DNA of 64,000 nt, from positions 14,152-78,151 of the forward strand of contig CBFDCK010000001.1 in assembly GCA_965603285.1 (NCBI GenBank), in the 5' to 3' direction. The notes under the pieces are model-generated. The model saw only the letters and a list, made by a program, of their open reading frames with translations, had not been told where the DNA came from and did no database searches. Position numbers and translations under genes: made by a program. The stretch is from an uncultured bacterium (lineage in GTDB: Bacteria > Chloroflexota > Anaerolineae > Anaerolineales > UBA4823). Below are positions 35,758 through 62,931 of the stretch, in pieces; within the stretch, counting starts at the first letter, position 1; each line of letters starts with the position of its first letter.

Positions 35758-36579
35758 CTATTCCTCTGCGTCGGCGTCTTCAAGCGCCTCGCCGACACCG
35801 GCCAGCGTTTCTGTTGCGCCCAATTCGGCTGAGCCTTCGGCGACTTCGGCTACCCCTTCCACAGCCAGGTCTTCGGCGGCCTCGCGCATACCCTTGGCTG
35901 CCGCTACCTCAACCATACCTTCAGCAGTCAGTTCGGCGCCGGCTTCCCCAAGTTCATCGCTCCGGACGGCAATACCGTCGGCTACGGCGAGTCTAGTGAG
36001 ACCCTCTGCTATCTCGTTGGCGCCCAAATCCGCTATATCTGCGCCGCTGGCGCTTATAGCGGCTGAAAGCGCCCGCGTAGCGCCGAAGCGCAGTATTGTG
36101 TCTACGGACAGGTCCTGCAGTTCATCGCTTTTAGAATCAAGAAAAGCGGACATCACCGGTAAACCCAAGATGTCTGCCACATCCCCAACAGCTTCAAGCT
36201 GCCCGGCAATAGAGGCTAACTGCATACCTAGCGCCAGGTCTTCCTCGCTCATTGAGCCGACAATTGCGCTCTGCACGGCGATATCATCGGAGGTTGCCAA
36301 CAGGTCGGCGCCTTCGGAAATATCGGTAATACCGGCAATCCCCACGACACCGCTCAGCACTGCGGCGCGATCAGCAATCGCCATGGCATCTATGCCGCGC
36401 GTGACGTCGCTGGCGCCAGCAGCCAGGGCTGCCCGGCTTGCCATCCCTACATCAGCGGCAGCATCCAGAGTCTCCATGCCCTCTATGACTTCTTCGATAC
36501 CCTCTTCTGCCATCTCTGCGCTCGCGGCTTCGACGGCTTCCGTGGTTTCCTGCAATTCATCCTTATACTCATCATTCAT
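35758..36579 (-). CDS. very acidic Ala/Glu/Gly-rich repetitive protein, function unknown
   Basis: AGGAGA RBS, 273-aa ORF with recurring 'AEG..EV.EG' units. Confidence 0.7.
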   Translation of the reverse strand: MNDEYKDELQETTEAVEAASAEMAEEGIEEVIEGMETLDAAADVGMASRAALAAGASDVTRGIDAMAIADRAAVLSGVVGIAGITDISEGADLLATSDDIAVQSAIVGSMSEEDLALGMQLASIAGQLEAVGDVADILGLPVMSAFLDSKSDELQDLSVDTILRFGATRALSAAISASGADIADLGANEIAEGLTRLAVADGIAVRSDELGEAGAELTAEGMVEVAAAKGMREAAEDLAVEGVAEVAEGSAELGATETLAGVGEALEDADAEE

Positions 36580-36751: not shown

Positions 36752-37441
36752 TTATTTCTCATTCCCCTTGATTATCCTGGCGTGGTTTTCTAGTTTGTCC
36801 CGGTCCGTGATCATAAATTCAGTGCGCTTGATATGGATGCTGCCCTCTTCAGCCAGGCGATACAGCACCCGGCATACAGTCTCGCGAGTGCTTCCAATGC
36901 GAGCTGCCATTTCATCTAGGGTCAAGTCACGAGCCACATAATCTTCCACCGCATCGCCATAACGATCCAATAACAAGTTCGCCAAACGACCGGCGACCGG
37001 TTGAAAAGCCAACACTTCCACCATCTCACTAGCTGTCTGCATACGCGTGACCATCTGTCGAGATAACTCCCAGGACATGTGACCATTACCCAGTAAATAA
37101 GGTAAAAAATGGTCGCGTGACCATAAATGGATGCGGCATGCTTCCCCCGCAACAAGCGCAACCGGCATTGGAGTAGTATCCAAAAAGAATGCTAACCCCT
37201 AAAAAGTTTCCCCAGGTCTGATTGTAGCGATGAGCAGGCTGCGACCTTCGAATGACTCTTTAATGGCGGAGACTCTGCCATTCTCAACGATAAATAGATA
37301 CGGCCAGATATCCCCATAATGGGTGATCCATTGGTCCTTTAGATAATTGCGCGAGATAGCCAAGCCAGCCAGGTTGGCTCGATCGCTGTCACTCAGGTGG
37401 GCATAAATGGGATTCTGTGACAGCAGTTGGGTTACTTTCAT
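36752..37441 (-). pseudogene. Crp/Fnr family regulator interrupted by an in-frame TAG at 37199-37201
   Basis: ORFs 37199-37441 and 36752-37183 share a frame: 'PGETF*GLAFF'; cNMP-like N domain and HTH 'LTLDEMAARIGSTRETVCR'. Confidence 0.85.
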
Positions 37442-37574
37442 ATATTATTCCATTATAAGATCATGCAGCATCCAACAATCGCTGGGAGTATGTGTGATCC
37501 CTCTTATCCTGCATTCGGGTTGCTTTTTATAATGCCTCTAAATTTGCGTTTAGGCAAAGATATTTTACCTGGTT

Positions 37575-37590
37575 TGTGATATTTATTACA
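37575..37590. promoter_or_regulatory. CRP/FNR-type operator
   Basis: TGTGA-tattta-TTACA between the divergent Crp/Fnr gene and the membrane operon. Confidence 0.6.
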
Positions 37591-37659
37591 TAGGTTATTG
37601 ATTATACCCAAATCCAATTCTTATTTCCCCAAATTCATCCTATGCTTAGGAGGCATAAA

Positions 37660-38559
37660 ATGCAAGCAACTCCGCAAAAAAACCGTACTGTTATGGCTAT
37701 CATCGCCGTGGTGATCGGTCTACTCATGGTGGCTGTGATTCCCTTTATAGTACAGACGTCCCTGGAAAGAGTATTAGTCCATTTGATGGCACATATTGCT
37801 GCTGGCAATCCAGCTTTCACCAGTGGGCTTACACTCTTCGATTTCTTCTATCCTGTCTGGCGAGCCGTCATCTTTGTGGCTGGCGTGACCTTACTGGTCA
37901 TCGCGACGCAAATCAAGAAAGGAGAAGAATGGACCTACCCCCTGTCTATGGCGCTTTTCGCCCTGCCAGCGATTGGCGGCATGTTTATGTTTTTGCCCTA
38001 TATCAGCTTTGTTTCCGGCTTCCCACTGCCGATGGTCATCTCGTTCATTGGATTAACGGGTTACTGGGCATTCATCTTCCTGCGTAAAGCCGAGACAATG
38101 GTGAAGTGGACGCGCTTCGGTGCACTGACCTTCATCGGTATGTTGTCCACCCACGCATTTACCATTGGTATCGGCGCCCAACGCACAATGTGGACCCGCC
38201 CTGGTCATCCCTTATACCCGGATTTTACATGGTGGCTGTTCAACTGGGTTGGCGAAGTAAACTGGGTTGCGGTCATTCTACTTTTCCTGTCTATCCCACT
38301 GCTGGCCGTTGGCAGGCGTAAAGGCTGGTGGCTGGCCGTAATCGGGACGATCTCAATCCTGATGATCAATATCCCGACGCAATTCTTCCGTACGAAAACG
38401 CTGGACTATCTCTACGGCGCGATTCTTGGCATTGGTGTGTTGGTCTTCCTTATGGTGCCCTATTTCAAAAAACACCTGCTCACAGTCGAAGCCTCTGAAA
38501 CAGATGCAGAGGCGGCAACAGAAGCAGAAGAAGAAATAGAGGCAGGAGAGACGACATAA
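37660..38559 (+). CDS. uncharacterised ~8-TM membrane protein
   Basis: AGGAGG RBS before ATG 37660; hydrophobic segments; acidic tail. Confidence 0.75.
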   Translation: MQATPQKNRTVMAIIAVVIGLLMVAVIPFIVQTSLERVLVHLMAHIAAGNPAFTSGLTLFDFFYPVWRAVIFVAGVTLLVIATQIKKGEEWTYPLSMALFALPAIGGMFMFLPYISFVSGFPLPMVISFIGLTGYWAFIFLRKAETMVKWTRFGALTFIGMLSTHAFTIGIGAQRTMWTRPGHPLYPDFTWWLFNWVGEVNWVAVILLFLSIPLLAVGRRKGWWLAVIGTISILMINIPTQFFRTKTLDYLYGAILGIGVLVFLMVPYFKKHLLTVEASETDAEAATEAEEEIEAGETT

Positions 38560-38633
38560 TTAGTTTGAACGAAACTTACAATCAGTTGCAAAGACTTCCC
38601 ACCGGAACGTTTCTGCACTAATAAGGAGTAGTC

Positions 38634-39434
38634 ATGAAATTCTTAAAAAACAACAATAGATTTGGCGCAGTCCTGGCTGTTGTTGGCATTCTGACCGGGT
38701 TGCTTGCTCTTTATTTGCTCGTCAGTATATACAATATCAATATCGAAGGGAAAATCGCCGATGGGCGTCCAGATGAAGCCATTACTGTGCAAATCGTTTT
38801 TGCCATGCTCGGTTGGTTGGGTGCTTCCGCTGGAGCGCTCTGGATTGCAGTACTGTATGGCTTCCTGAACAAAGCAAATTGGGCCTGGTTCTGGGGCACG
38901 GTCGCGGCCACCGTACAACTTCTTGTTGGCTTTTTCCCGATGATTCCAGCTGCCAGCATTGGTTTGCCCACGCCAACGATTTGGGTATTCCTGATTGCAT
39001 TCGTTTTGTGGTTCGGGATGCTCTTCATAGGCGGGGTGGATCTGAAAATTATTGCGCTTGCTTTCGTCAGCGGCTTGGCTTATGTGCTGACCTATATTGA
39101 TGGTGTCGGTGCGATTTCACGCTTCCAGACCGAATCAGAAGGTTTTGTGAACGGTATGTACGCTATGTCGCAAATGGTCAATTGGTGGGGCGCGGCGGCC
39201 TGGGCTGTCTTCATCTTTGCGCTGATCAAACGTAAATCGTGGACCATTCCCATGGGTGTCTTTGCCGCGTCCATGTCGATGTTTGGCGGCTATCCCGTCG
39301 GACTGACAGATGTGATCGCCATTAAGGGAGGCTTCTCCATGTTTCTGGTTGCACCTATCGTCAGCACAGGACTGCTGATATATTTGTTGCTGCCAGGCAC
39401 GAAAAAGATGCTCGCTGAATGGCAAAACAAATAG
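38634..39434 (+). CDS. uncharacterised ~8-TM membrane protein, probable distant paralog of the previous gene
   Basis: AAGGAG RBS; similar layout ('K.NWAW', 'KRKSW', 'FFPMIP' vs 'FLPYI'). Confidence 0.75.
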   Translation: MKFLKNNNRFGAVLAVVGILTGLLALYLLVSIYNINIEGKIADGRPDEAITVQIVFAMLGWLGASAGALWIAVLYGFLNKANWAWFWGTVAATVQLLVGFFPMIPAASIGLPTPTIWVFLIAFVLWFGMLFIGGVDLKIIALAFVSGLAYVLTYIDGVGAISRFQTESEGFVNGMYAMSQMVNWWGAAAWAVFIFALIKRKSWTIPMGVFAASMSMFGGYPVGLTDVIAIKGGFSMFLVAPIVSTGLLIYLLLPGTKKMLAEWQNK

Positions 39435-39626
39435 GGAACTGGCGGAAAGAATAAACGGATCGTCATCGATCAAGACCGCTGCACATCCTGCCATCGTTGC
39501 GATGCCGATTGTCCGGTCGATATTGCACCCATCCCAGAAAATATGCGCAGCCTTGAATGTGTGCAATGCCTGGAGTGCATTGAAACCTGTACCAGTCCCG
39601 ATGCCATCGATTTACGCCTGGGCTAA
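39435..39626 (+). pseudogene. 2x[4Fe-4S] ferredoxin domain (NapH/FixG C-terminal-like) without its own start codon
   Basis: Hand translation GTGGKNKRIVIDQDRCTSCHRCDADCPVDI...ECVQCLECIETCTSPDAIDLRLG*; in frame with the TAG of 38634-39434; absent from the ORF track. Confidence 0.75.
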
Positions 39627-39957
39627 ACTTCTTATTACCCATGCGGTCCCAATATTATTGGTGCAACCTCCATCTTTGCCCATCCCGACGATGAGTTATA
39701 TCACTCCGGAGGCACTCTGGCGCTGCTTGTCAGAAAGGGTGCACCAAAGACATCTAAGCAAATTGAGCAAGTTTAGATTCAACTTGTCACTTGTCAAAGA
39801 CATAAAGCCCGCGCTGTGGTAAATTTGTACAGGCAACGCAGCGTGGGCTGCTTTTTCGTAAAAGATGTGCATAGGATGCACAAAGCAAATCAATTCTGTG
39901 TTGTTTGAATATCCTGCGGACTTCTGGTTACTTTTCGTTTGCACTGGAGTGAACTTT

Positions 39958-41493
39958 ATGCAAGCAATCAAAACTCGTTTTACCTACCTGTTCCGCTCCA
40001 CCCGGGGCTTAACGTTGGTAGCCATCGCCATGGTAGCTCTGGTAACCGCGATTTGGGGTACCCTTTCTGGTCCGATGGTTGAATGGGGGGTCAAGGATAT
40101 CACCGTCAACCTGCTCAACATGGATTTGGTGCAAGCCGAGCGCGAAGGTCGCATCATCATGCTCTACCACACCATCGCCATGACCATCATCGCCATTGAA
40201 GTCTACTTCATGACCGAAATGTTGCCAATGAAGCGTTATGAGCAGGTAATCATCAACGCTACCATTACCGTTGGCTATCTCACTGCGCTCATTTTTGGAT
40301 TGGTCTTTGGGTATTTTGGCCATAACTTTGTCTTCCACGGGCTGTTCCTTGTCGGTCAGTCGCTGGTCTTCTTCGCCGGCATCCTGCTGGCGGCGGCGCT
40401 CTGGCCGTGGAAAAAAGATTACCGGCTGGAAAAGGAATCGCCCTTCACCCACACCAAAAGTGGTATTGATCTGGAGCGCACGGCTTTCTTTGTAATGGTA
40501 GTCGCCACACTGCTCTCGGCTACCTTTGGCGCAGTGACTGGCTCTTACTGGGGCAACGGTCACGAGACCTTTTTAGGCGAAGATTTGATCCGTGTCCCTC
40601 ACAAAACCGCGTTGCAGAAAGCCATAATCGGTCACCTGCACATTATGTTAACCCTGGTTGCTGTAGCTATCACTCTTATTGTGGGGCGCTGGATGAAATT
40701 CCAGGGCATCCTCCAGAAAATTGCCATGCCCTTGATGATTATCGGCACCATCATTATTACAATGGGAGCCTTGTCGATCGTGTGGTTGACCTGGGCTCAC
40801 ACTACGATCTACTTTGGTTCGGTTTTTGTGATGTTGGCTGCGCTGTTGTTTGTGATCTTCTCTTGGAACAAGTTGATCAAAGAAGGCACCGCAGATATCG
40901 AAAAACCCAATTTCTTCAAAAAAACAGGTGCACTTTTGCATGATCCGCTCAAATTCGGCCCCGGTTGGCAGATGGTTTTCATGAACTTCGTTGTCAGCGG
41001 TGTGGGTATCTTCATGGCAGTCAAATTGGATGAGATCTTCCGCGTTTGGCCGCACCGGGATGAACGCATCACTCTTTCCGGGCACTGGCACATCCTGGCA
41101 GCGCTGATCGCCACCATAATCCTCTTATACTTCGGTGATCTCTCCGGACTGAAAGGTAAGGTGCGCAAATGGTACGGGTGGATAATTATCATTATGTCTG
41201 ACCTGGCATTTGCCTCTGCGACCATCTTTTCTATGAAACGCTTGTTCGTTCCCGAAAGTGAGCAGCAGTCGTTAGTCAATACGCTTATGTTGCTGATGGA
41301 TATGGGATTAGCCCTGGTGCTGTTGGCACTGGCAATCTTCATGGGCTGGCGATTATTCGATCTGTTCAAGAAAAATGGTCTTTGGAGCAAAGAATTAGCT
41401 GCTGAGAGAAAAATCAACGCAGAAACTGAGATAGAGGAAAGCAAACGCAAACTGGATGAACTCCAGGCAACTCTTGAGGAGGTATCCAAATGA
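39958..41493 (+). CDS. 12-TM His-rich membrane protein, heme-copper-oxidase subunit I-like architecture (non-canonical)
   Basis: 12 hydrophobic segments by eye; His in TM2 'MLYHT', HxH in TM6 'GHLH' and TM10 'GHWH'; GGAG RBS before ATG 39958. Confidence 0.6.
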   Translation: MQAIKTRFTYLFRSTRGLTLVAIAMVALVTAIWGTLSGPMVEWGVKDITVNLLNMDLVQAEREGRIIMLYHTIAMTIIAIEVYFMTEMLPMKRYEQVIINATITVGYLTALIFGLVFGYFGHNFVFHGLFLVGQSLVFFAGILLAAALWPWKKDYRLEKESPFTHTKSGIDLERTAFFVMVVATLLSATFGAVTGSYWGNGHETFLGEDLIRVPHKTALQKAIIGHLHIMLTLVAVAITLIVGRWMKFQGILQKIAMPLMIIGTIIITMGALSIVWLTWAHTTIYFGSVFVMLAALLFVIFSWNKLIKEGTADIEKPNFFKKTGALLHDPLKFGPGWQMVFMNFVVSGVGIFMAVKLDEIFRVWPHRDERITLSGHWHILAALIATIILLYFGDLSGLKGKVRKWYGWIIIIMSDLAFASATIFSMKRLFVPESEQQSLVNTLMLLMDMGLALVLLALAIFMGWRLFDLFKKNGLWSKELAAERKINAETEIEESKRKLDELQATLEEVSK

Positions 41494-42458
41494 AGCGCCT
41501 TATCTTCAGTTTACTATTAGTTATTTTACTGGCAACCGCCTGTGGACCAGCCCCCAGCGTCAGTGCCATTAGCCCACCTTACGTGGATACAGGCATCGAT
41601 CCAGATTCCTGGGCAACCGTCCCGGCTGGCGAATTCCACTACGGGCAGCACGATCACATAACCATGGTGGATTACACTTACCAGATCATGGTCACAGATG
41701 TAACCGTCGATCAATACGCCACCTTTCTTAACGAGGCCATAGCATCTGGCGATATCAGCATCGGTGAATTTGAATTAGAGGCCGGGGAAACCATCTGGAC
41801 CGAAGGTGGAGCCGGTGGCTTTTATGAAGGCGATCCCTTCGATGGCTACAAACACGAAGAGGAAATCAAGGCTGGCGATAAACTCTATGTACCTCTGCAT
41901 GACGAGGGTCTGCGTCTGATATTCGATGGACAGACCTTCTCCGCTATCCCCGAATACGCCAATCACCCTATGACGCTGGTCACCTGGTTTGGCGCCAACG
42001 CCTTTTGCGAGAATTATGACTGGCGCCTGCCGACCGAAATCGAATGGGAAAAAGCCGCCCGCGGTACTGAGATAGTGGATGGTCATGGTCTGCCCTTCCC
42101 CTGGGGTGAGGAAATCCACGGCAATAATGCCAATTATTACTCTTCTTTCGATCTGTTTGAAAGAATGTTCGGTAAATTGGGCAACACCACCCCAACCGGT
42201 TTCTATAATGGTCAAACCTACGAAATTGGCGAAGGCAGTTACGAAACACTTGATTCACCCAGCCCCTACGGACTGTATGACATGGCTGGCAACGTCTGGC
42301 AGTGGATGGGTGATGACTACCCAGACCAGCACTACCGCTACATGCGCGGCGGCAGCTTCTATACCTACGAAGTTGACCTGCGTGTATGGAAAAACAACAG
42401 CGCTGGTCCACAGTACTATAGCCCAGCATTGGGATTCAGGTGCACACAGAATCAGTGA
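41490..42458 (+). CDS. FGE/SUMF1-fold (NirV-like) lipoprotein
   Basis: Lipobox-like 'LATAC', 'RLPTEIEWEKAARG', 'GLYDMAGNVWQW', 'RGGSF', 'GFRC'; ATGA overlap with the upstream gene. Confidence 0.88.
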   Translation: MKRLIFSLLLVILLATACGPAPSVSAISPPYVDTGIDPDSWATVPAGEFHYGQHDHITMVDYTYQIMVTDVTVDQYATFLNEAIASGDISIGEFELEAGETIWTEGGAGGFYEGDPFDGYKHEEEIKAGDKLYVPLHDEGLRLIFDGQTFSAIPEYANHPMTLVTWFGANAFCENYDWRLPTEIEWEKAARGTEIVDGHGLPFPWGEEIHGNNANYYSSFDLFERMFGKLGNTTPTGFYNGQTYEIGEGSYETLDSPSPYGLYDMAGNVWQWMGDDYPDQHYRYMRGGSFYTYEVDLRVWKNNSAGPQYYSPALGFRCTQNQ

Positions 42459-42528
42459 ATTGGGACCAGGCAACCAGGCGCTAGCCTCATTGCCAATCGA
42501 TGCCCGTAGCCTTGTTAAGGAGCGCTTT

Positions 42529-43383
42529 GTGAGTATCCTGAAATCGAAATTTCGCCTGTACTGGTCGCTGATCAAAAGCTTGCAAACTGCCCTGTTGCTG
42601 ACAACTGGGCTTGCCGGCTACATGAGCGCCCGCTGCCCAATCTTCAGCATCTGGACCATCTTAGGTGTGGCTGGCAGCCTGTTCCTTGTAATCAGTGGCA
42701 GTACTGTCCTCAATATGTGGTATGACCGCGATATAGACGCCAAAATGTCGCGCACCTGCACCCGTCCGCTCCCGGCAGGGGAAATCCCACCGCAGGAAGT
42801 CCTGTTCTTCGGGTTAACGATCTCGATTCTGGGTGTTGGTTGGGCTTTCGCAATGGACCCACTCTTTGGAGCCATCGTCTTTGCCGGGCTGTTCTTCGAT
42901 ATGTTAGTTTACACCATCTGGCTCAAACGCCGCACCTGCTGGAGCATCGTCTGGGGAGGTATCGCTGGGGCAATGCCCGTACTGGCAGGTCGTGCCCTGG
43001 GGTTGGGCTATATCGACTGGGTCGGCATCGCGCTCGCGCTGGGGATCCTTTTCTGGATTCCCACCCACATCCTAACCTTCAACATGCGTTACCACAAGGA
43101 GTTTCAGGCTGCAGGCATCCCCACTTTTGCATCCACCTACAGCTTCCAATTCACCCGCGTTACGATCGCAATCTCCAGTGTGCTGGCTGCCATGCTAATG
43201 GGGTTTGCAGCCTACGGCATCGGCATGAATTGGGGATACCTGCGCTTGATGGTCGTACTCTCCAGCGGTCTGCTGGTGCTGGCCGTGGTCAGTATGATCA
43301 AACCCTCTGAACAAGTGAATTTTGGGCTCTTTAAATACGCCTCGCTCTATATGCTCGGCTCAATGTTATTAATTACATTGTAA
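42529..43383 (+). CDS. cyoE: protoheme IX farnesyltransferase (heme O synthase)
   Basis: 'NMWYDRDID.KM.RT..RPLP', 'YTIWLKRR', 'GG.AGAMP', 'WIPTH'; AAGGAG + GTG 42529. Confidence 0.9.
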   Translation: MSILKSKFRLYWSLIKSLQTALLLTTGLAGYMSARCPIFSIWTILGVAGSLFLVISGSTVLNMWYDRDIDAKMSRTCTRPLPAGEIPPQEVLFFGLTISILGVGWAFAMDPLFGAIVFAGLFFDMLVYTIWLKRRTCWSIVWGGIAGAMPVLAGRALGLGYIDWVGIALALGILFWIPTHILTFNMRYHKEFQAAGIPTFASTYSFQFTRVTIAISSVLAAMLMGFAAYGIGMNWGYLRLMVVLSSGLLVLAVVSMIKPSEQVNFGLFKYASLYMLGSMLLITL

Positions 43384-43400
43384 GTTCTGGTGGGAAATCT

Positions 43401-43724
43401 CAGGCTAGGAAAGAATATCTATCTTGGATCGAATTTTTACTGCTGATGAGCGGATTGCTGGCGGTGGTCGTGATCTGCTTCGCCACACCTGGATAGTTGG
43501 TAACCTTCACGTTAGCCTTTATTCATGGCATAGTAAGTATGCCGATCTTCTTGTTGTCCATCATCCTAAGCCTGCGCATGTATACACCCATCCCCAAGCC
43601 GCTTCTGGCGTTAATGTACATCGGGATTGGCGGCAGCTTGTTCCTTGCGAGTCTCCATTATTATAAACATATCTGGGTGACAGAGAGAGGGCGGGTTAAG
43701 GACATCGCTGGTATGTCGCATTGA
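43401..43724 (+). pseudogene. small membrane-protein remnant with an in-frame TAG at 43494-43496
   Basis: 'EYLSWIEFLLLMSGLLAVVVICFATPG*LVTFTLAFIHGIVSMP...': hydrophobic frame continues across the stop. Confidence 0.45.
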
Positions 43725-49834: not shown

Positions 49835-50494
49835 CTAGTCGTCCTCTTTGGGGATGGACGAAATTCCTAGACGAACGATCAGATACATATGGATACTGAT
49901 GGTCAGAACGAGTACTGCGGGCAGGATCCAGATATGCGCAGAGAAGAAGCGCGCCAGGGTTACAGCACTGATATCCATGCCGCCTCTCAGCACCCTCATA
50001 ATGAAAGTGCCGATGAATGGTACCGTGGCAGCGATCTCGGTGCCAACCGTGGTGGCCCAGTAGGCGCGCTGATTCATGGGCAGGAGGTAACCCGTAAAAC
50101 CCATCCCTAAGGTTACCAGTAAAAGAATTACACCTGTGACCCAGGTGAGCTCGCGGGGATATTTATATGCGGCGCAGTAGAAGGTTCGCAGCATGTGCAT
50201 AAATACGAAGATGACCATCAGTGAAGCACCCCAGTGGTGTATGCCGCGAATCAGCCACCCAAAGTCGACGCCGTTCATGATGTAAAGGATGCTGTCGGCA
50301 GCATGGTCTGGAGTAGGAACGTAGTAAATAGTAAGAAAGATGCCCGTGATACCTTGAACCACGAATAAAAAGAGACTGGCGCTTCCGAGTGTGAACCACC
50401 AGTTCACTTTTGGAACGTCGCGGTCTAATACGGTGTCGTATACTGTTTTAATACCCAGGCGTTCGTCCAGCCAGTTGAGAACTTTTGCTGCCAT
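49835..50494 (-). CDS. cytochrome b6-like (split cytochrome b, QcrB-like)
   Basis: 'YYVP', 'RGIHHWGAS', 'HMLR', 'GFTGYLLP', 'RFFSAH', 'IHMY'. Confidence 0.92.
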   Translation of the reverse strand: MAAKVLNWLDERLGIKTVYDTVLDRDVPKVNWWFTLGSASLFLFVVQGITGIFLTIYYVPTPDHAADSILYIMNGVDFGWLIRGIHHWGASLMVIFVFMHMLRTFYCAAYKYPRELTWVTGVILLLVTLGMGFTGYLLPMNQRAYWATTVGTEIAATVPFIGTFIMRVLRGGMDISAVTLARFFSAHIWILPAVLVLTISIHMYLIVRLGISSIPKEDD

Positions 50495-52118: not shown

Positions 52119-53912
52119 ATGACCGAATTTCATCAATATGACATCTTAGTCGTAGGAGCAGGAGGTGCCGGTCTAATGGCAGCCTTATACGCTTCAAAAA
52201 CCACCAGTACCGCTGTGATCAGCAAGCTGTATCCCACTCGTTCGCACACTGGTACTGCCCAGGGCGGTGTGGGCGCAGCCTTGGGAAATGAGGGGGAAGA
52301 TCACCCCGAATGGCATACCTACGATACTGTTAAGGGCAGCGATTACCTGGGAGACCAGGATGCCATTGAGTTCATGTGCCAGGAAGCAGTGCAAACGGTC
52401 TACGAGTTAGAGCACATGGGATTACCGTTCTCGCGAACTCCCGAAGGTCGCATCGCTCAACGACCTTTTGGCGGTCACACCAACAACGTAACTGGAAAAC
52501 CTGTGCCGCGAGCTTGCTACGCCGCCGACCGTACAGGGCATATGATCCTGCAAACCCTGTACCAGCAGTGCATCAAGAACAATGTCACCTTCTTTGACGA
52601 ATTTGAAGTCTTGGATTTATTGATTGTCAACGGTGCTGCCGCCGGTGTGGTTGCCCTGGAAATATTGACCGGGGAAATGCATGTTTTCCATGCCAAATCA
52701 GTAATATTTGCCACAGGGGGGCACGGACGAATCTGGGATATCACCTCCAACGCCTACACCTATACCGGGGATGGAGTAGCGGTTGCCCTACGAAGAGGAA
52801 TTCCGGCTGAAGATATGGAGTTTTTTCAATTCCACCCGACCGGGATTTATAAAATGGGAATTCTGATCACTGAAGGTGTGCGCGGAGAAGGCGGAGTCTT
52901 GCTCAACGATACGGGAGAGCGCTTCATGGAGCGCTATGCTCCCACTGCCAAGGACTTGGCCTCGCGTGATGTGGTCAGCCGTGCTATGTATATCGAAATG
53001 CAGGAAGGGCGCGGTATCGGCGGGAAGCGTTATCTATACCTGGATGTGACACCTGAAATTGTCAATAAATATGCCGCCGAAGATGGTCGCACACGTACGG
53101 ACGGCTCTCCATACGTCGTAACGGCGGAGGAGATACTCTCAAAACTGCCGGATATCGTTGATTTCGCTCGCACTTATCTGGGCGTAGATCCGGTTTCTGA
53201 ACCGATGCCTGTGCAGCCCACGGCTCACTACGCGATGGGTGGTATCCCGACAGATAAGTTGGGTCAGGTGGTAATTGACGAGCATAACACCGTTATGCCG
53301 GGTTTTTACGCCGCCGGTGAAGCAGCCTGCGTTTCAGTGCATGGAGCCAATCGTCTGGGCACAAATTCGCTGGTGGATATCATCATCTTCGGTAAGTATT
53401 CTGGTCTGCAGGCGGCTGAGTACGCCAACGGCGTCGATTTCCAGGAATTGCCCGCGGATGCGGATGATTTCGCCCGCCAGCAGTTGGATGCGATTTTGAA
53501 TTCCACGGGCACCGAGAACGCTGCCGATATCGCTAACGAGATGAAGAGCGTCATGTTCGATCATGTGGGCGTCTTCCGCACAGAGGATGGGATGGCGCAG
53601 GCGCTCGAGAAAGTGCGCGAGCTGCAGGAACGCCTGAAGAACGTGAATAGTACGGACCTCGGCAGCACTTTCAACACCGAGTTGATCGATATCTGGGAGC
53701 TGGGTAATTTGCTGGATCTAGCGGAGGTCACAGCGGTCTCGGCGCTGGCTCGTAAAGAGAGTCGCGGCGCGCACGCCCGGGAGGATTATCCCAAACGGGA
53801 TGACGCGAACTGGATGAAACATACCCTGGCATGGATAAAAGATGGCGAGGTTGAGCTAAGCTACAAACCGGTAGTGATAACCAAGTACGAGCCCAAGGAA
53901 CGCGTTTACTAG
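52119..53912 (+). CDS. sdhA: succinate dehydrogenase/fumarate reductase flavoprotein
   Basis: 'GAGGAG', '[10 protein letters not shown]', 'QFHPTG', 'HYAMGG', 'HGANRLG', 'ESRGAH'. Confidence 0.95.
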
Positions 53913-53928
53913 GCTGCGGGAGACCCTT

Positions 53929-54633
53929 ATGCAGGTAACACTCAAGATATTTCGTTACAATCCCGAAGAGGATAAGAAGCCACATTACGAAAGCTACAAA
54001 TTGGAGGCCGAACCGACCGACCGGGTGCTTGATCTGCTGGAGTATGTCAAAAGCTATCATGACGGTACTCTGTCCTTCCGGCGTTCCTGTGCTCACGGTG
54101 TCTGCGGCTCGGATGCGATGCGCATCAACGGTCTCAACCGCCTGGCTTGTAAAGTGCTGATTAAAGAGTTGGGTGCCAAAAAGATCACTATCGAGCCGAT
54201 CCTGGGAATGCAGGTCATCAAGGACCTGATAGTGGATATGGAGCCTTTCTTTGAGAATTTCCGCATGGTAATGCCTTACTTTGTAAACGACGAACCGCCG
54301 CCCAAGCGCGAACGTTTGCAGAGTCAGGAGCAGCGCGAGCGCTTCGACGACACGACCAAGTGCATTCTGTGTGCCTCCTGTACAACCTCCTGCCCATCAT
54401 TCTGGGCAAACGAAAAATATCTCGGACCGGCGGCGATCGTGACCGCGCACCGTTTCATCTTCGACAGCCGCGACCGGGCGGGGGCAGAGCGTCTAAAGCG
54501 ATTGAATGACGCCTTCGGCGTGTACCGCTGCCACACGATCTTTAACTGCACGGTCGCCTGCCCACGTGAAATCGAGGTCACACGCGCGATTGGGGAGGTG
54601 AAGGTAGCCATCGCTACGGGGAAGATTGATTGA
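53929..54633 (+). CDS. sdhB: succinate dehydrogenase Fe-S subunit
   Basis: 'SCAHGVCGSD', 'CILCASCTTSCP', 'CHTIFNCTVACP'. Confidence 0.95.
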   Translation: MQVTLKIFRYNPEEDKKPHYESYKLEAEPTDRVLDLLEYVKSYHDGTLSFRRSCAHGVCGSDAMRINGLNRLACKVLIKELGAKKITIEPILGMQVIKDLIVDMEPFFENFRMVMPYFVNDEPPPKRERLQSQEQRERFDDTTKCILCASCTTSCPSFWANEKYLGPAAIVTAHRFIFDSRDRAGAERLKRLNDAFGVYRCHTIFNCTVACPREIEVTRAIGEVKVAIATGKID

Positions 54634-55370: not shown

Positions 55371-56771
55371 ATGAAATCATCTTTACCAGATGATCAATCC
55401 GCTAATATGTTTTCCCGTATGCGCCATTCCCTTGCACCGAATGAAGTGCCCGTTGACGACCGGGGGCGTATGCGCATGGTGATGAACAACCTCATTTTGC
55501 ATATCCACCCTTCTAAAGTAAATGTGCGCTCACTGCGTTTTACATATACATGGGGTTTAGGTGGGCTTTCAGTTATGTTAACCATGATTCTTGCGATGAC
55601 TGGGGTGCTCTTACAGATGAACTACACTCCTAGCCCTCCCCAAGCTTACCTGGATATTATCAACATGAATACCAATATTTGGTTTGGGGAGCTGATTCGC
55701 AATTTACATCACTGGTCAGCTAACTTGCTCGTTGTTGTCTCGGTGCTGCATCTGTTGCGGGTGTTTTTCACCGGTGCATATCGCCCGCCCAGGGAAATGA
55801 ACTGGTTGATCGGAGTGGCAATGTTGCTGCTGGTGCTGGGGGCTAACTTCACCGGCTATCTGCTTCCCTGGGATCAACTGGCCTTCTGGGCCATCACCGT
55901 TGGGACCAGCATTATTGAATACATCCCCATCATCGGACCCGGGCTCAACAGGCTGCTGCTTGGCGGGCCAGAAGTTGGCGCACCAACATTGCTCAACTTC
56001 TACTCACTTCATATCAGTTTCATCCCTATATCGATTGTTGCATTGATGTCCTATCATTTCTGGAAGGTGCGCAAAGATGGCGGTCTGACGATTCCCAAAA
56101 AACCCGGGGAAGATCTCCCCTCACGCCCTGAAAAGGTCACCACAATCCCTCATCTGGTGCGTCGAGAGTTGGTGTTTGCTCTGGTCTGGCTGGCTATTAT
56201 GTTGTTTTGGGCCATGCTGGTCCCCGCTCCCTTGGAGGGTATTGCTAACCCTGATGTTAGTCCTAACCCTGCCAAAGCACCCTGGTATTTCCTCGGATTG
56301 CAGGAATTGATGCTTCACTTCCATCCGTTGGTTGCAGCTATTATCATTCCTACCTTGGCTTTGCTAGCCCTCGCCCTGTTGCCATTTTATGATTTCTCTT
56401 CCCACAGTGTAGGTGTTTATTTCCGGTCCTGGCGGGGTCGTTCTCTCGCTTTTTTATCAGTTGGATTAGCCCTGGTCGTTACACCTGTCTGGGTGTTATT
56501 CGATGAATTTGTTCTCAATTGGGCAGGCTGGCTGCCCAGCTGGCCCAGCCTGATATCCAATGGTCTCATCCCCTTCGCGGTTGTCTTGCTGGGCATCCTG
56601 CTTCTGGATGAGGTTATCCAAAAAATTTTCACGACTGACCATGAAGAACGCGTGTTGTTTTTATTCATATTCTTGTTTACAGCATTATTGGTGCTCACGA
56701 CAATCGGAATATTTTTCCGCGGTCCGGGCATGGAGCTTTTTTGGCCGTGGGATATGCCGGTTCACGTGTGA
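55371..56771 (+). CDS. cytochrome b (fused b + subunit IV) of a second Rieske/b complex
   Basis: 'RNLHHWSA', 'HLLRVF', 'FTGYLLPW', 'FYSLH', 'YHFW', 'KAPWYF'. Confidence 0.9.
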   Translation: MKSSLPDDQSANMFSRMRHSLAPNEVPVDDRGRMRMVMNNLILHIHPSKVNVRSLRFTYTWGLGGLSVMLTMILAMTGVLLQMNYTPSPPQAYLDIINMNTNIWFGELIRNLHHWSANLLVVVSVLHLLRVFFTGAYRPPREMNWLIGVAMLLLVLGANFTGYLLPWDQLAFWAITVGTSIIEYIPIIGPGLNRLLLGGPEVGAPTLLNFYSLHISFIPISIVALMSYHFWKVRKDGGLTIPKKPGEDLPSRPEKVTTIPHLVRRELVFALVWLAIMLFWAMLVPAPLEGIANPDVSPNPAKAPWYFLGLQELMLHFHPLVAAIIIPTLALLALALLPFYDFSSHSVGVYFRSWRGRSLAFLSVGLALVVTPVWVLFDEFVLNWAGWLPSWPSLISNGLIPFAVVLLGILLLDEVIQKIFTTDHEERVLFLFIFLFTALLVLTTIGIFFRGPGMELFWPWDMPVHV

Positions 56772-61137: not shown

Positions 61138-62931
61138 TTAGATCATTGGATCCATCATTAAAGCGGGATGCGCGCTTGCTTCCATATGGGCTAGGATTTC
61201 TTCCTCGGTCAGTGCGTTCTCCTCGGTGGCGATCATATCCACAAATCCAGGCACCCCCGCTTCGTTCGCGAGCGTCTCCAGCACAGGACGCAGTTCCTCC
61301 CTCAGGGCGCGATTCATCCACACAATGCGCCGCCAGCCTCCTTCGGCTGAGATGAATTTATCCCTTTGCAAAGCCCGCTTGCTGTGACCAATGAAGCCGG
61401 GAACGGGAGCACCCGCTCCGACTATCTCATATAGCATCGCCCAGTCCATCCCGCTTGGCGTCATGCCATCGTATGTATGTTCCATTATCATCACACCGTT
61501 GGATATCGGGAGCATGGCTGTGATGCACTCGAAATCGCCGCATGCAGAGCCGGGGTCTTGCATCATGCTGTACAGGCTATAGGCTGTTAAGACACCGCCC
61601 GATTCTTGCTGCACGATCTGGTTGACACTCTCCCATTGACCGAGGTTGGCATCTATTAAACCGCTTTTTTTGACCGCTTTGTTAGGACCGACAGGGCGGA
61701 TAATGACCGCCGCGCGCGCATCCATCCAGTCTACTGCACCGCAAACTCCGGGATGCTCCGGGCTAATGACGCAGAGATGCCCGCCAGCGATGGATTGACA
61801 AAGACTGCAGGTGTAGAAGGTATCTACGTCTTCATCAGTTAGGCTGATTAAGCGTTTATCCCGCTGTTCATAGATTGCTTGAGCTCTTTCTGTGATGATC
61901 GGTATTTGCGTCGGTTCGGTATAAATGGTGATCTGAACACGGCTGAGGATATTGCCAAATTCATTGTGATATCGAGCGTGTAGAATCTCTCCCAGGTGGC
62001 GTAAGTGTAGACCTTTATCAATGGCTTTTTGGGTGATGCGCAAGGTAACAATCGTCCGCTGCCCTCGATGTACGACTCCATCTACATCGTTGATCATCGT
62101 CTCGATTTGCCGCTCCAGGACTGGCTCGAAGTCCGGCTGCATCTCCCGCCCGCTGATTTCGATCAGCATTGCGTAGGATTGGTTGCCGCTCAAACCAGAA
62201 TCCAGGTCTGGTCCGACAACCATTATCTGCCCGTCGATGATCTTTTCTCCCGTTTCGGTCAGTTCAACACCGGCAAGACATGCACCGCAGGCTTCATCGT
62301 GCACAACCTGGCCAGAGAAATCAGAGCTATATGCCACGGGCAATTCCGGTATTGGGACGTTAATCTGCAAGCCCCGCTCCTCGATGCCAATCTGGACGAT
62401 GTCGGAGAGATCAACCCCACCGATGGCGGGGAGGTACTCAGCCGAAATCTCCCAGGTTTCCACAGAGGCTGGCAGATCGGCGTTACTCAGCAAAGGGCAG
62501 CCCAGGGGTGTGGCAGCCTGTGCCAGCGCCAAACGGTCAGGTGTCGGTTCGCCCAGCAGCAAGGTGATACCGGGCAACCGCTGGCGGGCGTAGCGCAGCG
62601 CATCTTCGGGGCTATCGGCATTGCCAAAGATCTGTGCCATACGAGCGATGAATCCCAGGGCACACTGCAGGTCAAAAGGCACAATGCCAGAATTCCAACC
62701 AAGCGGCAGACCAGCTTCTCGCAGAGCAGCGGTCAATATATCTTCGGTGACAAAAACCACAACTTTCCGTTGGGTCAGCGACTCGATTATCGTTGAAGCC
62801 GCTACAGCATCATCGCCCATTAGCAGTGTATAGCCGGAAGTCGAACCGTCGATGAACCCAATCCCCTGGTGCCGCACATCGGCATCGTCAGCCAAAGCTG
62901 CGGCGGAAAAAATATCGATAGAATCTGACAT
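61138..62931 (-). CDS. divergent acetyl-CoA synthase (AcsB/CdhC) homolog
   Basis: 'GREMQPDFEPVLERQI', 'LTDEDVDTFYTCSLCQS..HLCVISPEHPGVCGA', 'ACGDFECI', 'KFISAEGG..RIVWM', 'HPALMMDPM'. Confidence 0.88.
   Translation of the reverse strand: MSDSIDIFSAAALADDADVRHQGIGFIDGSTSGYTLLMGDDAVAASTIIESLTQRKVVVFVTEDILTAALREAGLPLGWNSGIVPFDLQCALGFIARMAQIFGNADSPEDALRYARQRLPGITLLLGEPTPDRLALAQAATPLGCPLLSNADLPASVETWEISAEYLPAIGGVDLSDIVQIGIEERGLQINVPIPELPVAYSSDFSGQVVHDEACGACLAGVELTETGEKIIDGQIMVVGPDLDSGLSGNQSYAMLIEISGREMQPDFEPVLERQIETMINDVDGVVHRGQRTIVTLRITQKAIDKGLHLRHLGEILHARYHNEFGNILSRVQITIYTEPTQIPIITERAQAIYEQRDKRLISLTDEDVDTFYTCSLCQSIAGGHLCVISPEHPGVCGAVDWMDARAAVIIRPVGPNKAVKKSGLIDANLGQWESVNQIVQQESGGVLTAYSLYSMMQDPGSACGDFECITAMLPISNGVMIMEHTYDGMTPSGMDWAMLYEIVGAGAPVPGFIGHSKRALQRDKFISAEGGWRRIVWMNRALREELRPVLETLANEAGVPGFVDMIATEENALTEEEILAHMEASAHPALMMDPMI

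What the first reader, a model, noticed from the sequence alone, without database searches (positions are those of the whole stretch)
36752..43724. Candidate undescribed heme-O membrane redox system built on a non-canonical heme-copper-oxidase-like protein
Seen: the 511-aa protein (39958-41493) has 12 hydrophobic segments in an apparent 3x4 repeat. His motifs fall at equivalent positions: TM2 'RIIMLYH', TM6 'KAIIGHLH', TM10 'RITLSGHWH', with extra His in TM4 (FHG) and TM8 (AHT). Established: HCO/NOR subunit I is 12-TM and pseudo-threefold, with His in TM2, His in TM6, HH in TM7 and HxH in TM10. Here the TM7 HH pair and HPxxY are absent and TM6 has a second HxH, so a canonical CuB/FeB site cannot form. 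No CuA or cytochrome c subunit II is adjacent. Instead the gene is translationally coupled to an FGE/NirV-like lipoprotein and followed by heme O synthase, and preceded by two 8-TM proteins, a 2x[4Fe-4S] domain and a divergent Crp/Fnr regulator with a CRP-type box. Inference: a new multi-heme membrane oxidoreductase or sensor using prenylated heme, possibly in O2 or nitrogen-oxide metabolism.
Basis: partly seen in the sequence, partly recalled or inferred. Interest (0 to 1): 0.85.

Follow-up and report, generated by a model that had tools for sequence, protein, structure and literature searches.

The report
Seven-histidine oxidase-fold heme O protein
An unannotated 12-helix membrane protein predicted to have the fold of respiratory oxidases keeps seven invariant histidines, lacks their copper-binding pair, and travels with its own heme O synthase even in genomes where no ordinary oxidase was found, so it is likely an overlooked multi-heme enzyme that probably removes nitric oxide or oxygen.

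Summary
The core is confirmed; the accessory part only partly. The 511-aa protein (39958-41493) has no Pfam or NCBIfam hit. Its AlphaFold model (pLDDT 93) matches heme-copper oxidase/NO-reductase subunit I: the top 10 hits are all of that kind (Z 13.8-19.6; next 11.4). All seven His, plus E208, R362, E369 and Y70, are near-invariant in 90 homologues from bacteria and archaea. The TM7 His-His pair and the cross-linking Tyr are absent. The order 12TM-FGE-heme O synthase holds in 38 of 44 assessable bacterial loci; a 12TM-FGE fusion exists. The heme O synthase forms its own clade and occurs in four ≥93%-complete genomes with no canonical oxidase found. Distant homologues lie beside qNOR/narGH, gNOR-like and DUF438 genes. 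Corrections: in this window the Crp gene has a nonsense codon, the 4Fe-4S 'domain' is a startless remnant of a NapH-like gene, and the usual 7-TM partner is deleted. Most carriers lack NirS, NirK and NosZ. Best reading: a three-pocket multi-heme protective oxidoreductase, NO favoured (0.4). It works like an HCO relative but is not a member of any canonical HCO/NOR family. Pei 2014 (HCOH) was unreadable. The scan found this family before in other genomes.

The parts
36752..37441 (-). Crp/Fnr-family regulator without the FNR Cys cluster, recognition helix TRETVCR; interrupted by an in-frame TAG at 37199-37201 (probable pseudogene)
37575..37590 (+). CRP/HcpR-type box, one mismatch to TGTGA-N6-TCACA, upstream of the first 8-TM gene
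   Evidence: consensus as in PMC1274295
37660..38559 (+). Accessory membrane protein 'c8' (299 aa), no Pfam hit, paralogue of the next gene; 8 of 53 loci
   Evidence: (hhalign P 94.5%)
38634..39434 (+). Accessory membrane protein 'c5' (266 aa), no Pfam hit, no conserved His; 14 of 53 loci; related to a neighbour of the Asgard-like loci
39456..39626 (+). Startless C-terminal remnant (2x[4Fe-4S] motif) of a NapH-like polyferredoxin gene
39669..39740 (+). 24-codon remnant of a PIG-L-family gene
   Evidence: E 6e-6
39958..41493 (+). Core 12-TM protein (511 aa), predicted HCO/NOR subunit I fold; near-invariant R65, Y70, H71, Y119, H127, E208, H226, H228, H281, R362, E369, H376, W377, H378
41490..42458 (+). 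FGE-sulfatase-fold lipoprotein (322 aa), no catalytic Cys pair, invariant H122-E123 and H159; fused to the 12-TM protein in P0123
42529..43383 (+). Heme O synthase (CyoE/CtaB, 284 aa) of the operon-specific clade, with the motifs shared by that clade intact
43437..43724 (+). Chimeric remnant: internal piece of the 7-TM partner 'c3' (with an in-frame TAG) joined to the C-terminal third of the small membrane gene 'c7'

Best explanation
The 511-aa protein is predicted to be a deeply divergent heme-copper-oxidase-fold membrane enzyme that likely holds up to three hemes, at least one probably heme O from the adjacent dedicated synthase, and likely uses electrons from the membrane quinol pool to remove nitric oxide as a protective rather than respiratory reaction. 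SHOWN: the fold match of the model, seven near-invariant His, loss of the TM7 His pair and of the TM6/TM7 Tyr, the operon, a separate heme O synthase clade, and CRP-type boxes. INFERRED by mapping the repeat onto the recalled HCO structure: pocket C holds a low-spin heme between H71 and H378. Pocket B holds a heme on H376 with H228 and H281 on the distal side, as a two-His metal site or bare distal pocket. Pocket A, cofactor-free in oxidases, holds a third heme on H226 with H127, Y119 and Y70 nearby. R212, R362, E208 and E369 would bind propionates or a cation on the outer face. The FGE lipoprotein would cap that face in place of subunit II, and the 7-TM partner 'c3' would be an electron-entry or assembly subunit. 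A Crp/Fnr regulator of the HcpR/Dnr kind would switch the operon on. In this window the three core genes are intact but regulator and accessories are broken; the genome has a second core copy and intact c3 genes elsewhere.
For: Fold: VIA-align top 10 all HCO/NOR (3mk7 Z 19.6, rmsd 4.2, 408 aligned), next 11.4; Foldseek top rows cbb3 and ba3, TM 0.53-0.61, E 5e-3. A profile comparison puts H228 on the TM6 CuB His and H376/H378 on TM10 HxH (global P 67%, E 7e-6). All seven His in 33 of 35 full-length distant homologues (the other two lack the N-terminus) and in 119-120 of 120 near ones. Heme O link: among 61 related genomes, all 13 carriers with an oxidase have 2-3 synthase genes; 5 of 6 carriers without one still have the synthase; only 2 of 14 genomes lacking both have it. 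Operon-type synthases form a clade of 32 (support 0.96) apart from 21 oxidase-linked ones (1.0). G000 has no PF00115 or CtaA match. Context: c3-12TM directly upstream of narGH in 7 archaeal loci, with qNOR and/or cytochrome cd1 genes upstream where the locus reaches (L060, L061, L067); a gNOR-like subunit I just upstream in 4 loci; DUF438-hemerythrin-PAS in 9 of 50 distant loci; NnrS-like, DUF1858, DUF423 and Rrf2 neighbours. 36 CRP-type sites against 11-20 in shuffles, 16 of them beside c3. FGE next in 41 of 44 loci and fused in P0123 (E 2e-65).
Against: The register of H71 is unresolved: hhalign and the modelled helix ends align it with H228/H378, while real HCOs align the TM2 His with the first His of TM10. 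NO-producing or N-oxide enzymes are rare in carriers: NirS 2, NirK 4, NosZ 1, Hcp 0 of 19; NrfA 13 of 19 against 16 of 42 non-carriers; G000 has none of the five. 13 of 19 carriers have an ordinary oxidase and 15 of 19 have cytochrome bd, which fits O2 exposure as well as NO. Several loci already carry a NOR next door. The local profile match to HCO is weak (P 12%), and no Foldseek row reaches E 0.001. The distant loci are redundant samples, not independent events.
Confidence: 0.4

Rival explanations
1. It is a copper-free or low-copper O2 or peroxide scavenger: a heme O high-spin site with nearby invariant Tyr (Y70, Y119) reduces O2 at microoxic levels, as cytochrome bd does.
For: Heme O is known mainly from O2-reducing oxidases (recalled). 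Two Tyr are near-invariant: Y70 82 of 82, Y119 83 of 86. Most carriers lack NO-forming nitrite reductases but have O2 reductases.
Against: No Tyr at the TM6 or TM7 cross-link positions and no TM7 His pair; Murali 2024 treats the Tyr as required for O2 reduction in this superfamily. Carriers already have bd or A-type oxidases. Neighbours are mostly nitrogen-oxide genes.
Confidence: 0.22
2. It is not catalytic for a gas but a transmembrane electron wire (three bis-His-type hemes) that passes quinol electrons to an outside partner, such as the periplasm-facing nitrate reductase in the archaeal loci or the FGE lipoprotein in bacteria.
For: Seven His can pair into up to three heme sites. c3-12TM lies directly upstream of narG-narH-EbdC-like genes in 7 loci. 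NapH-like and multiheme cytochrome neighbours occur.
Against: All His lie near the outer ends of their helices in the repeat, which suits a ring of hemes at one depth rather than a wire across the membrane. No fixed redox partner across clades. A dedicated heme O synthase is unusual for a plain wire (recalled).
Confidence: 0.14
3. It is a heme O chaperone, store or sensor: the pockets bind heme O or NO and serve the assembly, repair or regulation of other proteins, in the manner proposed for NnrS-type HCO homologues.
For: Tight linkage to the synthase; it sits beside complete qNOR and gNOR-like enzymes; it lacks the canonical catalytic ligands; NnrS-like and DUF423 neighbours.
Against: Four carriers at 93-96% completeness and G000 show no HCO client for heme O. 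Invariance of 7 His, 2 Glu, 2 Arg and 2 Tyr across bacteria and archaea looks catalytic. No signalling domain is fused in the homologues inspected; longer forms were not searched systematically.
Confidence: 0.18
4. The heme O synthase serves another client, such as cytochrome bd, and its linkage to the 12-TM gene is regulatory only; the 12-TM protein uses heme b.
For: The five HCO-less carriers above 85% completeness all have bd; 41 of 50 distant loci have no synthase nearby.
Against: Of 9 bd-positive genomes lacking both an HCO and the 12-TM gene, 7 have no synthase. The linkage holds in 40 of 44 bacterial loci and in the Asgard-like clade.
Confidence: 0.06

Closest known systems
Heme-copper oxidoreductase subunit I, C family (cbb3 CcoN, 3mk7), B family (ba3, 3eh3/3s3b) and cNOR NorB (4xyd)
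   Same: 12-TM pseudo-threefold fold (Z 19.0-19.6, 392-434 residues aligned); His in TM2, TM6 and HxH in TM10; heme O synthase in the operon.
   Different: 9-13% identity, no PF00115 hit; no TM7 HH, no cross-link Tyr, no TM6 Glu; extra invariant H226, H127, H281; no CuA or cytochrome c subunit; FGE-fold and 7-TM partners instead.
Divergent NOR families gNOR, eNOR, sNOR, nNOR, NOD and the putative N2O reductase (Murali et al. 2024, PMC11214002; parts 1-2 of 6 and passages read)
   Same: Same superfamily, no active-site Tyr, altered ligands; gNOR-like genes are direct neighbours in 4 distant loci.
   Different: The paper calls gNOR the first family to replace even one active-site His; this protein lacks two and adds three elsewhere. 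The gNOR-like neighbour is detected by PF00115; this family is not.
Three-unit HCO-homology (HCOH) proteins including NnrS (Pei, Li, Kinch, Grishin 2014, PMC4243994; not held, content recalled, citation seen)
   Same: 12 TM, three homologous four-helix units, no CuB His pair, nitrogen-oxide gene context. This is the class it fits best.
   Different: Most three-unit HCOH are recalled to keep two His for one heme; this family keeps seven His and has a dedicated heme O synthase and an FGE partner. No NnrS (PF05940) match among the 25 families shown for 55 members. Whether the paper lists this family could not be checked.
MAPEG proteins and styrene oxide isomerase (single-unit homotrimers; 6ssr, 8pnu)
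   Same: Match one repeat unit (Z 11.2-11.4, about 135 residues); SOI is recalled to bind a heme at each subunit interface, like the three-pocket model here.
   Different: One-third the size, homotrimeric, different chemistry; Z is in the range that helical bundles reach by common arrangement.

Membership tests
HCO O2 reductases (A, B, C) | 12-TM pseudo-threefold subunit I fold | tested here: met
HCO O2 reductases (A, B, C) | TM10 HxH heme ligands and TM6 CuB His | tested here: met
   H376/H378 and H228 align in the profile comparison; near-invariant
HCO O2 reductases (A, B, C) | TM2 His pairing with the second TM10 His for the low-spin heme | tested here: inconclusive
   H71 is invariant, but its register is ambiguous; no coordinates available
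HCO O2 reductases (A, B, C) | Adjacent His-His CuB ligands at the end of TM7 | tested here: not met
   No HH; only a single H281 at the start of TM8
HCO O2 reductases (A, B, C) | Cross-linked Tyr in TM6 (A, B) or TM7 (C) | tested here: not met
   Majority-Tyr columns are 70, 83, 107, 119 and 424; none in TM6 or TM7
HCO O2 reductases (A, B, C) | CuA or cytochrome c second subunit in the operon | tested here: not met
   The next gene is FGE-fold in 41 of 44 loci; no such subunit among the conserved clusters
HCO O2 reductases (A, B, C) | Conserved proton channel | not tested
   Needs model coordinates
cNOR / qNOR / nNOR | FeB bound by three His and a TM6 Glu | tested here: not met
   TM6 after H228 reads IMLT with no Glu; TM7 HH absent; definition
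gNOR / eNOR / sNOR / bNOR | PF00115-detectable subunit I with a cupredoxin second subunit | tested here: not met
   No PF00115 hit for P0001 or among the families shown for 55 members; a gNOR-like neighbour does hit
Three-unit HCOH class (Pei 2014) | Three homologous four-helix units related to HCO, without the full six-His set | tested here: met
   definition recalled
Three-unit HCOH class (Pei 2014) | Being one of the families listed in that paper | not testable with these tools
   Paper not held
NnrS | PF05940 match | tested here: not met
   None for P0001 at E<=1 and not among the 25 families shown of 36 for 55 members; six distant members have no Pfam hit
Heme O synthase CyoE/CtaB (third gene) | TIGR01473 cut-off and prenyltransferase Asp-rich motif | tested here: met
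   212.1 vs 210.3 bits; motifs present; the product heme itself was not testable
Formylglycine-generating enzyme (second gene) | Catalytic Cys pair | tested here: not met
   Only Cys18, 173 and 318; none in the active-site stretch after the RGGS motif (position recalled); fold family PF03781 met
Heme A synthase CtaA | 8-TM two-bundle fold and PF02628 match | tested here: inconclusive
   No PF02628 hit; not among the 50 fold rows listed, which does not exclude it

The most novel reading that the evidence does not exclude
This is an ancient, unrecognised branch of the heme-copper superfamily, shared by Chloroflexota, other anaerobic bacteria, Thermoproteota and Asgard archaea, in which all three symmetry-related pockets carry hemes. 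Its catalytic centre is copper-free, uses heme O, and has moved to the pocket that is empty in known oxidases (H226, H127, Y119, Y70). It would be a new class of NO- or O2-reducing enzyme invisible to current annotation, and a living model of the tri-heme ancestor of respiratory oxidases.
Probability: 0.25. Interest if true: 0.9.

Novelty: new variant of a known kind. Interest (0 to 1): 0.68.

Why it matters
The family is large (3227 hits among 7997 scored candidates; 19 of 61 related genomes) and unannotated. If it turns over NO or O2, genome surveys miss an NO or O2 sink in abundant sediment Anaerolineae and in Asgard-like archaea that are scored as lacking oxidases and NORs. It also explains orphan heme O synthase genes, which could be misread as remnants of aerobic respiration. 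A His set in all three pockets makes the proposed origin of oxidases from a triplicated four-helix unit testable in a natural protein. Named homologues exist in Infirmifilum and Thermoactinomyces, and the three core genes can be expressed in a laboratory host.

Tried and rejected
Pfam and NCBIfam for the 12-TM protein: nothing credible. PDB by sequence profile: no match under E 0.1. Plasmids: no match. ESM Atlas: unnamed clusters first; one cluster auto-named 'cytochrome oxidase subunit I profile' at 0.90 and Aq_1264 at 0.78 are leads only; nothing named for c3. Complex prediction of the 12-TM protein with c3 and four hemes gave no verdict (score 0.00); it counts neither way, and 12TM with FGE was never folded. 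TAG read-through for the three in-frame TAGs was rejected: no tRNA(CTA) found, TAG ends 206 long frames, and two of the three sites are deletion remnants. A link to NosZ, Hcp, NirS or NirK was not found in the 61 genomes. FNR-type boxes: 4 of 47 loci, not pursued. Alternative heme A synthase: no client oxidase in several carriers, and the fold rows are HCO. The c3 model (pLDDT 94.7) matches only generic 7-TM GPCR/rhodopsin-like bundles (Z 11-14, no row standing out). RNA runs: four cold-seep RNA libraries hold short contigs resembling parts of the operon, mostly under 95% alike; these runs had small shares and show neither transcription nor this strain. The register of H71 could not be fixed by sequence; size compensation between positions 72 and 227 (9 rows with I/V and A) is one lineage only. 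Literature searches that found no description of this family. The library omits most subscription papers. Pei 2014 with its supplements and the datasets of Murali 2024 were not seen, and either could list the family. An earlier scan note (e1-3812308) is marked 'part of it fell', but what fell was not shown.

Full report
Observation. The ORF at 39958-41493 encodes 511 residues. It has no credible Pfam, NCBIfam or PDB sequence match. AlphaFold2 on a 55-row alignment gave mean pLDDT 93.0 and pTM 0.93, with twelve long helices and a C-terminal helix. The internal repeat is real for units 2/3 (P 96%, E 1e-9) and 1/3 (P 72%), weak for 1/2 (P 15.5%), against reversed controls of 0.3-3.4%. The FGE lipoprotein gene overlaps its stop, and the heme O synthase follows from GTG 42529.

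The window copy is partly decayed. The Crp gene has an in-frame TAG at 37199-37201. DNA contigs carry the same stop: one 3-kb contig from a possible source run, and two from other studies that end 14-16 letters past it. The genome uses TAG as a stop and no matching tRNA was found. The 4Fe-4S motif is the last 56 residues of a NapH-like gene without a start. A PIG-L fragment follows it, and the ORF after the synthase is a chimera of pieces of two operon genes. The three core genes keep their frames and conserved residues. The genome (87.5% complete) has a second 12TM-FGE-synthase copy on C243, cut by the contig end. It also has a Crp, c3, synthase, c3, c6, DUF423 cluster on C39 and a whole NapH-like gene on C191.

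Fold. Foldseek's best rows are cbb3 and ba3 subunits I (TM 0.53-0.61), none at E 0.001 or better. The wide structural search ranks ten HCO/NOR chains first (Z 19.6 to 13.8, about 400 residues aligned, rmsd 4.2-5.0, 8-11% identity), then single-unit MAPEG/SOI proteins at 11.4 and 11.2. A profile of 26 HCO/NOR sequences taken from fetched loci aligns globally at P 67%, E 7e-6, with H228 on the TM6 CuB His and H376/H378 on TM10 HxH. The local score is only P 12%, against 0.5% for the reversed control.

Conservation. Over 90 rows (55 of alignment A1 plus 35 distant ones; gaps excluded) the counts are H71 82/82, H127 86/86, H226 89/90, H228 89/90, H281 89/89, H376 88/89, H378 88/89, E208 90/90, R362 88/88, E369 88/88, Y70 82/82, Y119 83/86, R65 81/82 and W377 89/89. 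There is no TM7 His pair, no TM6 Glu and no Tyr in TM6 or TM7. H127 and H281 are repeat equivalents at the start of TM4 and TM8. In the two HCO alignments each falls beside the TM7 HH, so they may be shifted ligands (inference). H71 may pair with H378 as in oxidases: real HCOs align it with the first TM10 His, and Arg spacing and one size compensation agree. But hhalign and the modelled helix ends put it in the H228/H378 register. I put the canonical register at about 65%. Either way pockets A and B each collect two or three His, which no canonical family has.

Range. 3227 proteins scored E<=0.001 among 7997 candidates; the named ones are Anaerolineae/Chloroflexota. The 53 genome loci include Calditrichota, Aminicenantes, Marinimicrobia, Bacillota, Bacteroidales and Melioribacter records. 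Distant clades at 24-33% identity include Infirmifilum and a cluster with a Promethearchaeota member. The labels 'Pyrobaculum-like' and 'Asgard-like' for unnamed metagenome loci are my inference from the tree and gene content.

Operon. In 44 bacterial loci with enough downstream DNA, FGE is next in 41, the synthase lies within 2.3 kb in 40, and both hold in 38. Over all 53 loci: c3 40, Crp 22, c6 17, c5 14, c7 10, c8 8, NapH-like 8 (the profiles were built from these loci). P0123 fuses the 12-TM and FGE parts. In 50 distant, redundant loci FGE is absent, the synthase occurs in 9 and c3 in 11. c3 is a 7-TM protein with one near-invariant His, often in two paralogues. c5, c8, c6 and a neighbour of the Asgard-like loci are related to one another. 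CRP-type boxes number 36 against 11-20 in shuffles; 16 lie beside c3 and 12 are perfect. The same consensus is given for Desulfovibrio HcpR, with the Arg-Glu recognition pair that the window's regulator has (PMC1274295, passages). E. coli CRP shares that box, so it does not identify the signal.

Heme O. Among 61 related genomes 19 carry the gene. Thirteen of them have a canonical oxidase, and all 13 have a second or third synthase gene. Six have none, four of these at 93-96% completeness, and five of the six keep the synthase. Of 14 genomes with neither, 2 have a synthase. In the 50 genomes behind the first loci, 17 have no PF00115 match over the cut-off, 6 more have only a qNOR-like one, and 32 have no CtaA over the cut-off. 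The operon-type synthases form one clade (32 sequences, support 0.96) apart from 21 oxidase-linked ones. The tree used 29 of 58 operon-locus sequences, and one of them, a second gene on L042, fell outside. Cytochrome bd is an unlikely client: 7 of 9 bd-positive genomes lacking both HCO and this gene have no synthase. These are incomplete genomes and kin, so the counts are not independent tests.

Function. Pointing to nitrogen oxides: c3-12TM directly upstream of narGH in 7 archaeal loci, with qNOR and/or cytochrome cd1 genes upstream where the locus reaches; a gNOR-like subunit I just upstream in 4 loci (His-to-Asp in TM6 and, in most, a CuA-less cupredoxin gene, as Murali 2024 defines gNOR); DUF438-hemerythrin-PAS in 9 loci; and NnrS-like, DUF1858, DUF423 and Rrf2 neighbours. 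Against a role in respiratory denitrification: NirS 2, NirK 4, NosZ 1 and Hcp 0 of 19 carriers, NrfA 13 of 19 (16 of 42 non-carriers), and none of these in G000, which has bd only. A protective NO-removing enzyme fits both sets best (0.40). O2/peroxide scavenging (0.22), a chaperone or sensor (0.18), an electron wire (0.14) and an unlinked synthase (0.06) remain. That it is a heme-binding HCO-fold protein served by this synthase I put near 0.8.

Comparison and novelty. It works like an HCO-fold heme protein but fails the defining ligand tests for A/B/C oxidases and for the NOR families in PMC11214002 (parts 1-2 of 6 and passages read; datasets not seen). It fits the HCOH class of Pei et al. 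2014, which was not held. I saw only its citation and one secondary sentence, so its content is recalled and it may already list this family. Searches found no description. Earlier scan notes report the same family in other genomes; I reached the fold, His and synteny results before reading them. Verdict: a real, widespread, apparently uncharacterised variant of the heme-copper superfamily with an unusual seven-His set and a dedicated heme O synthase. The copy in this window has lost its regulator and accessories. Interest 0.68.

Noticed in passing
G000:C243:1-2855 and G000:C39:15625-20979 (L143, L142): The genome has a second 12TM-FGE-synthase copy at a contig end, and a separate Crp, kinase-like, c3, synthase, c3, c6, DUF423 cluster that lacks the 12-TM and FGE genes.
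   Followed up: partly
L142:2903-3529 (c3 family; L001:4228-4827): The partner c3 is an unannotated 7-TM protein with a GPCR/rhodopsin-like bundle and one near-invariant His in TM5, often as two paralogues, shared by bacteria and archaea.
   Followed up: partly
L060:3117-15231, L067:2164-15284: In Thermoproteota-like loci the gene pair lies directly upstream of narG-narH-EbdC-like genes, inside an island with cytochrome cd1, NnrS-like and (L060, L061) qNOR genes.
   Followed up: partly
L091:1516-6505, L083:1296-5304, L035/L130: gNOR-like operons (TM6 His-to-Asp, CuA-less cupredoxin) lie directly upstream of the 12-TM gene in a separate clade; an HCO with a similar TM7/TM10 motif precedes the close-clade locus L035.
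   Followed up: partly
L092-L094: Asgard-like loci continue 12TM-synthase with a His-bearing small membrane protein, an FAD-binding oxidoreductase and a CCG/4Fe-4S protein, a possible electron source.
   Followed up: no
L151:8328-9245, L152:8448-9341, L153:4413-5312: Operon-clade heme O synthases also occur without the 12-TM gene beside them: partial operon remnants or another client.
   Followed up: no
window 35758-36579 (-): A 273-aa acidic, Ala/Glu-rich ORF with no Pfam or NCBIfam hit lies just downstream of the Crp gene.
   Followed up: no
window 49835-50494 (-), 52119-54633 (+), 55371-56771 (+): Two cytochrome b6-like genes flank a succinate dehydrogenase/fumarate reductase operon in a genome where no heme-copper oxidase was found.
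   Followed up: no
window 61138-62931 (-): Acetyl-CoA synthase (CODH/ACS) subunit, pointing to an O2- and NO-sensitive Wood-Ljungdahl pathway in the host; the genome also has a selenocysteine tRNA.
   Followed up: no
window 41490-42458: The FGE-fold partner has an invariant His-Glu (H122-E123) in a loop, a candidate outside ligand.
   Followed up: no
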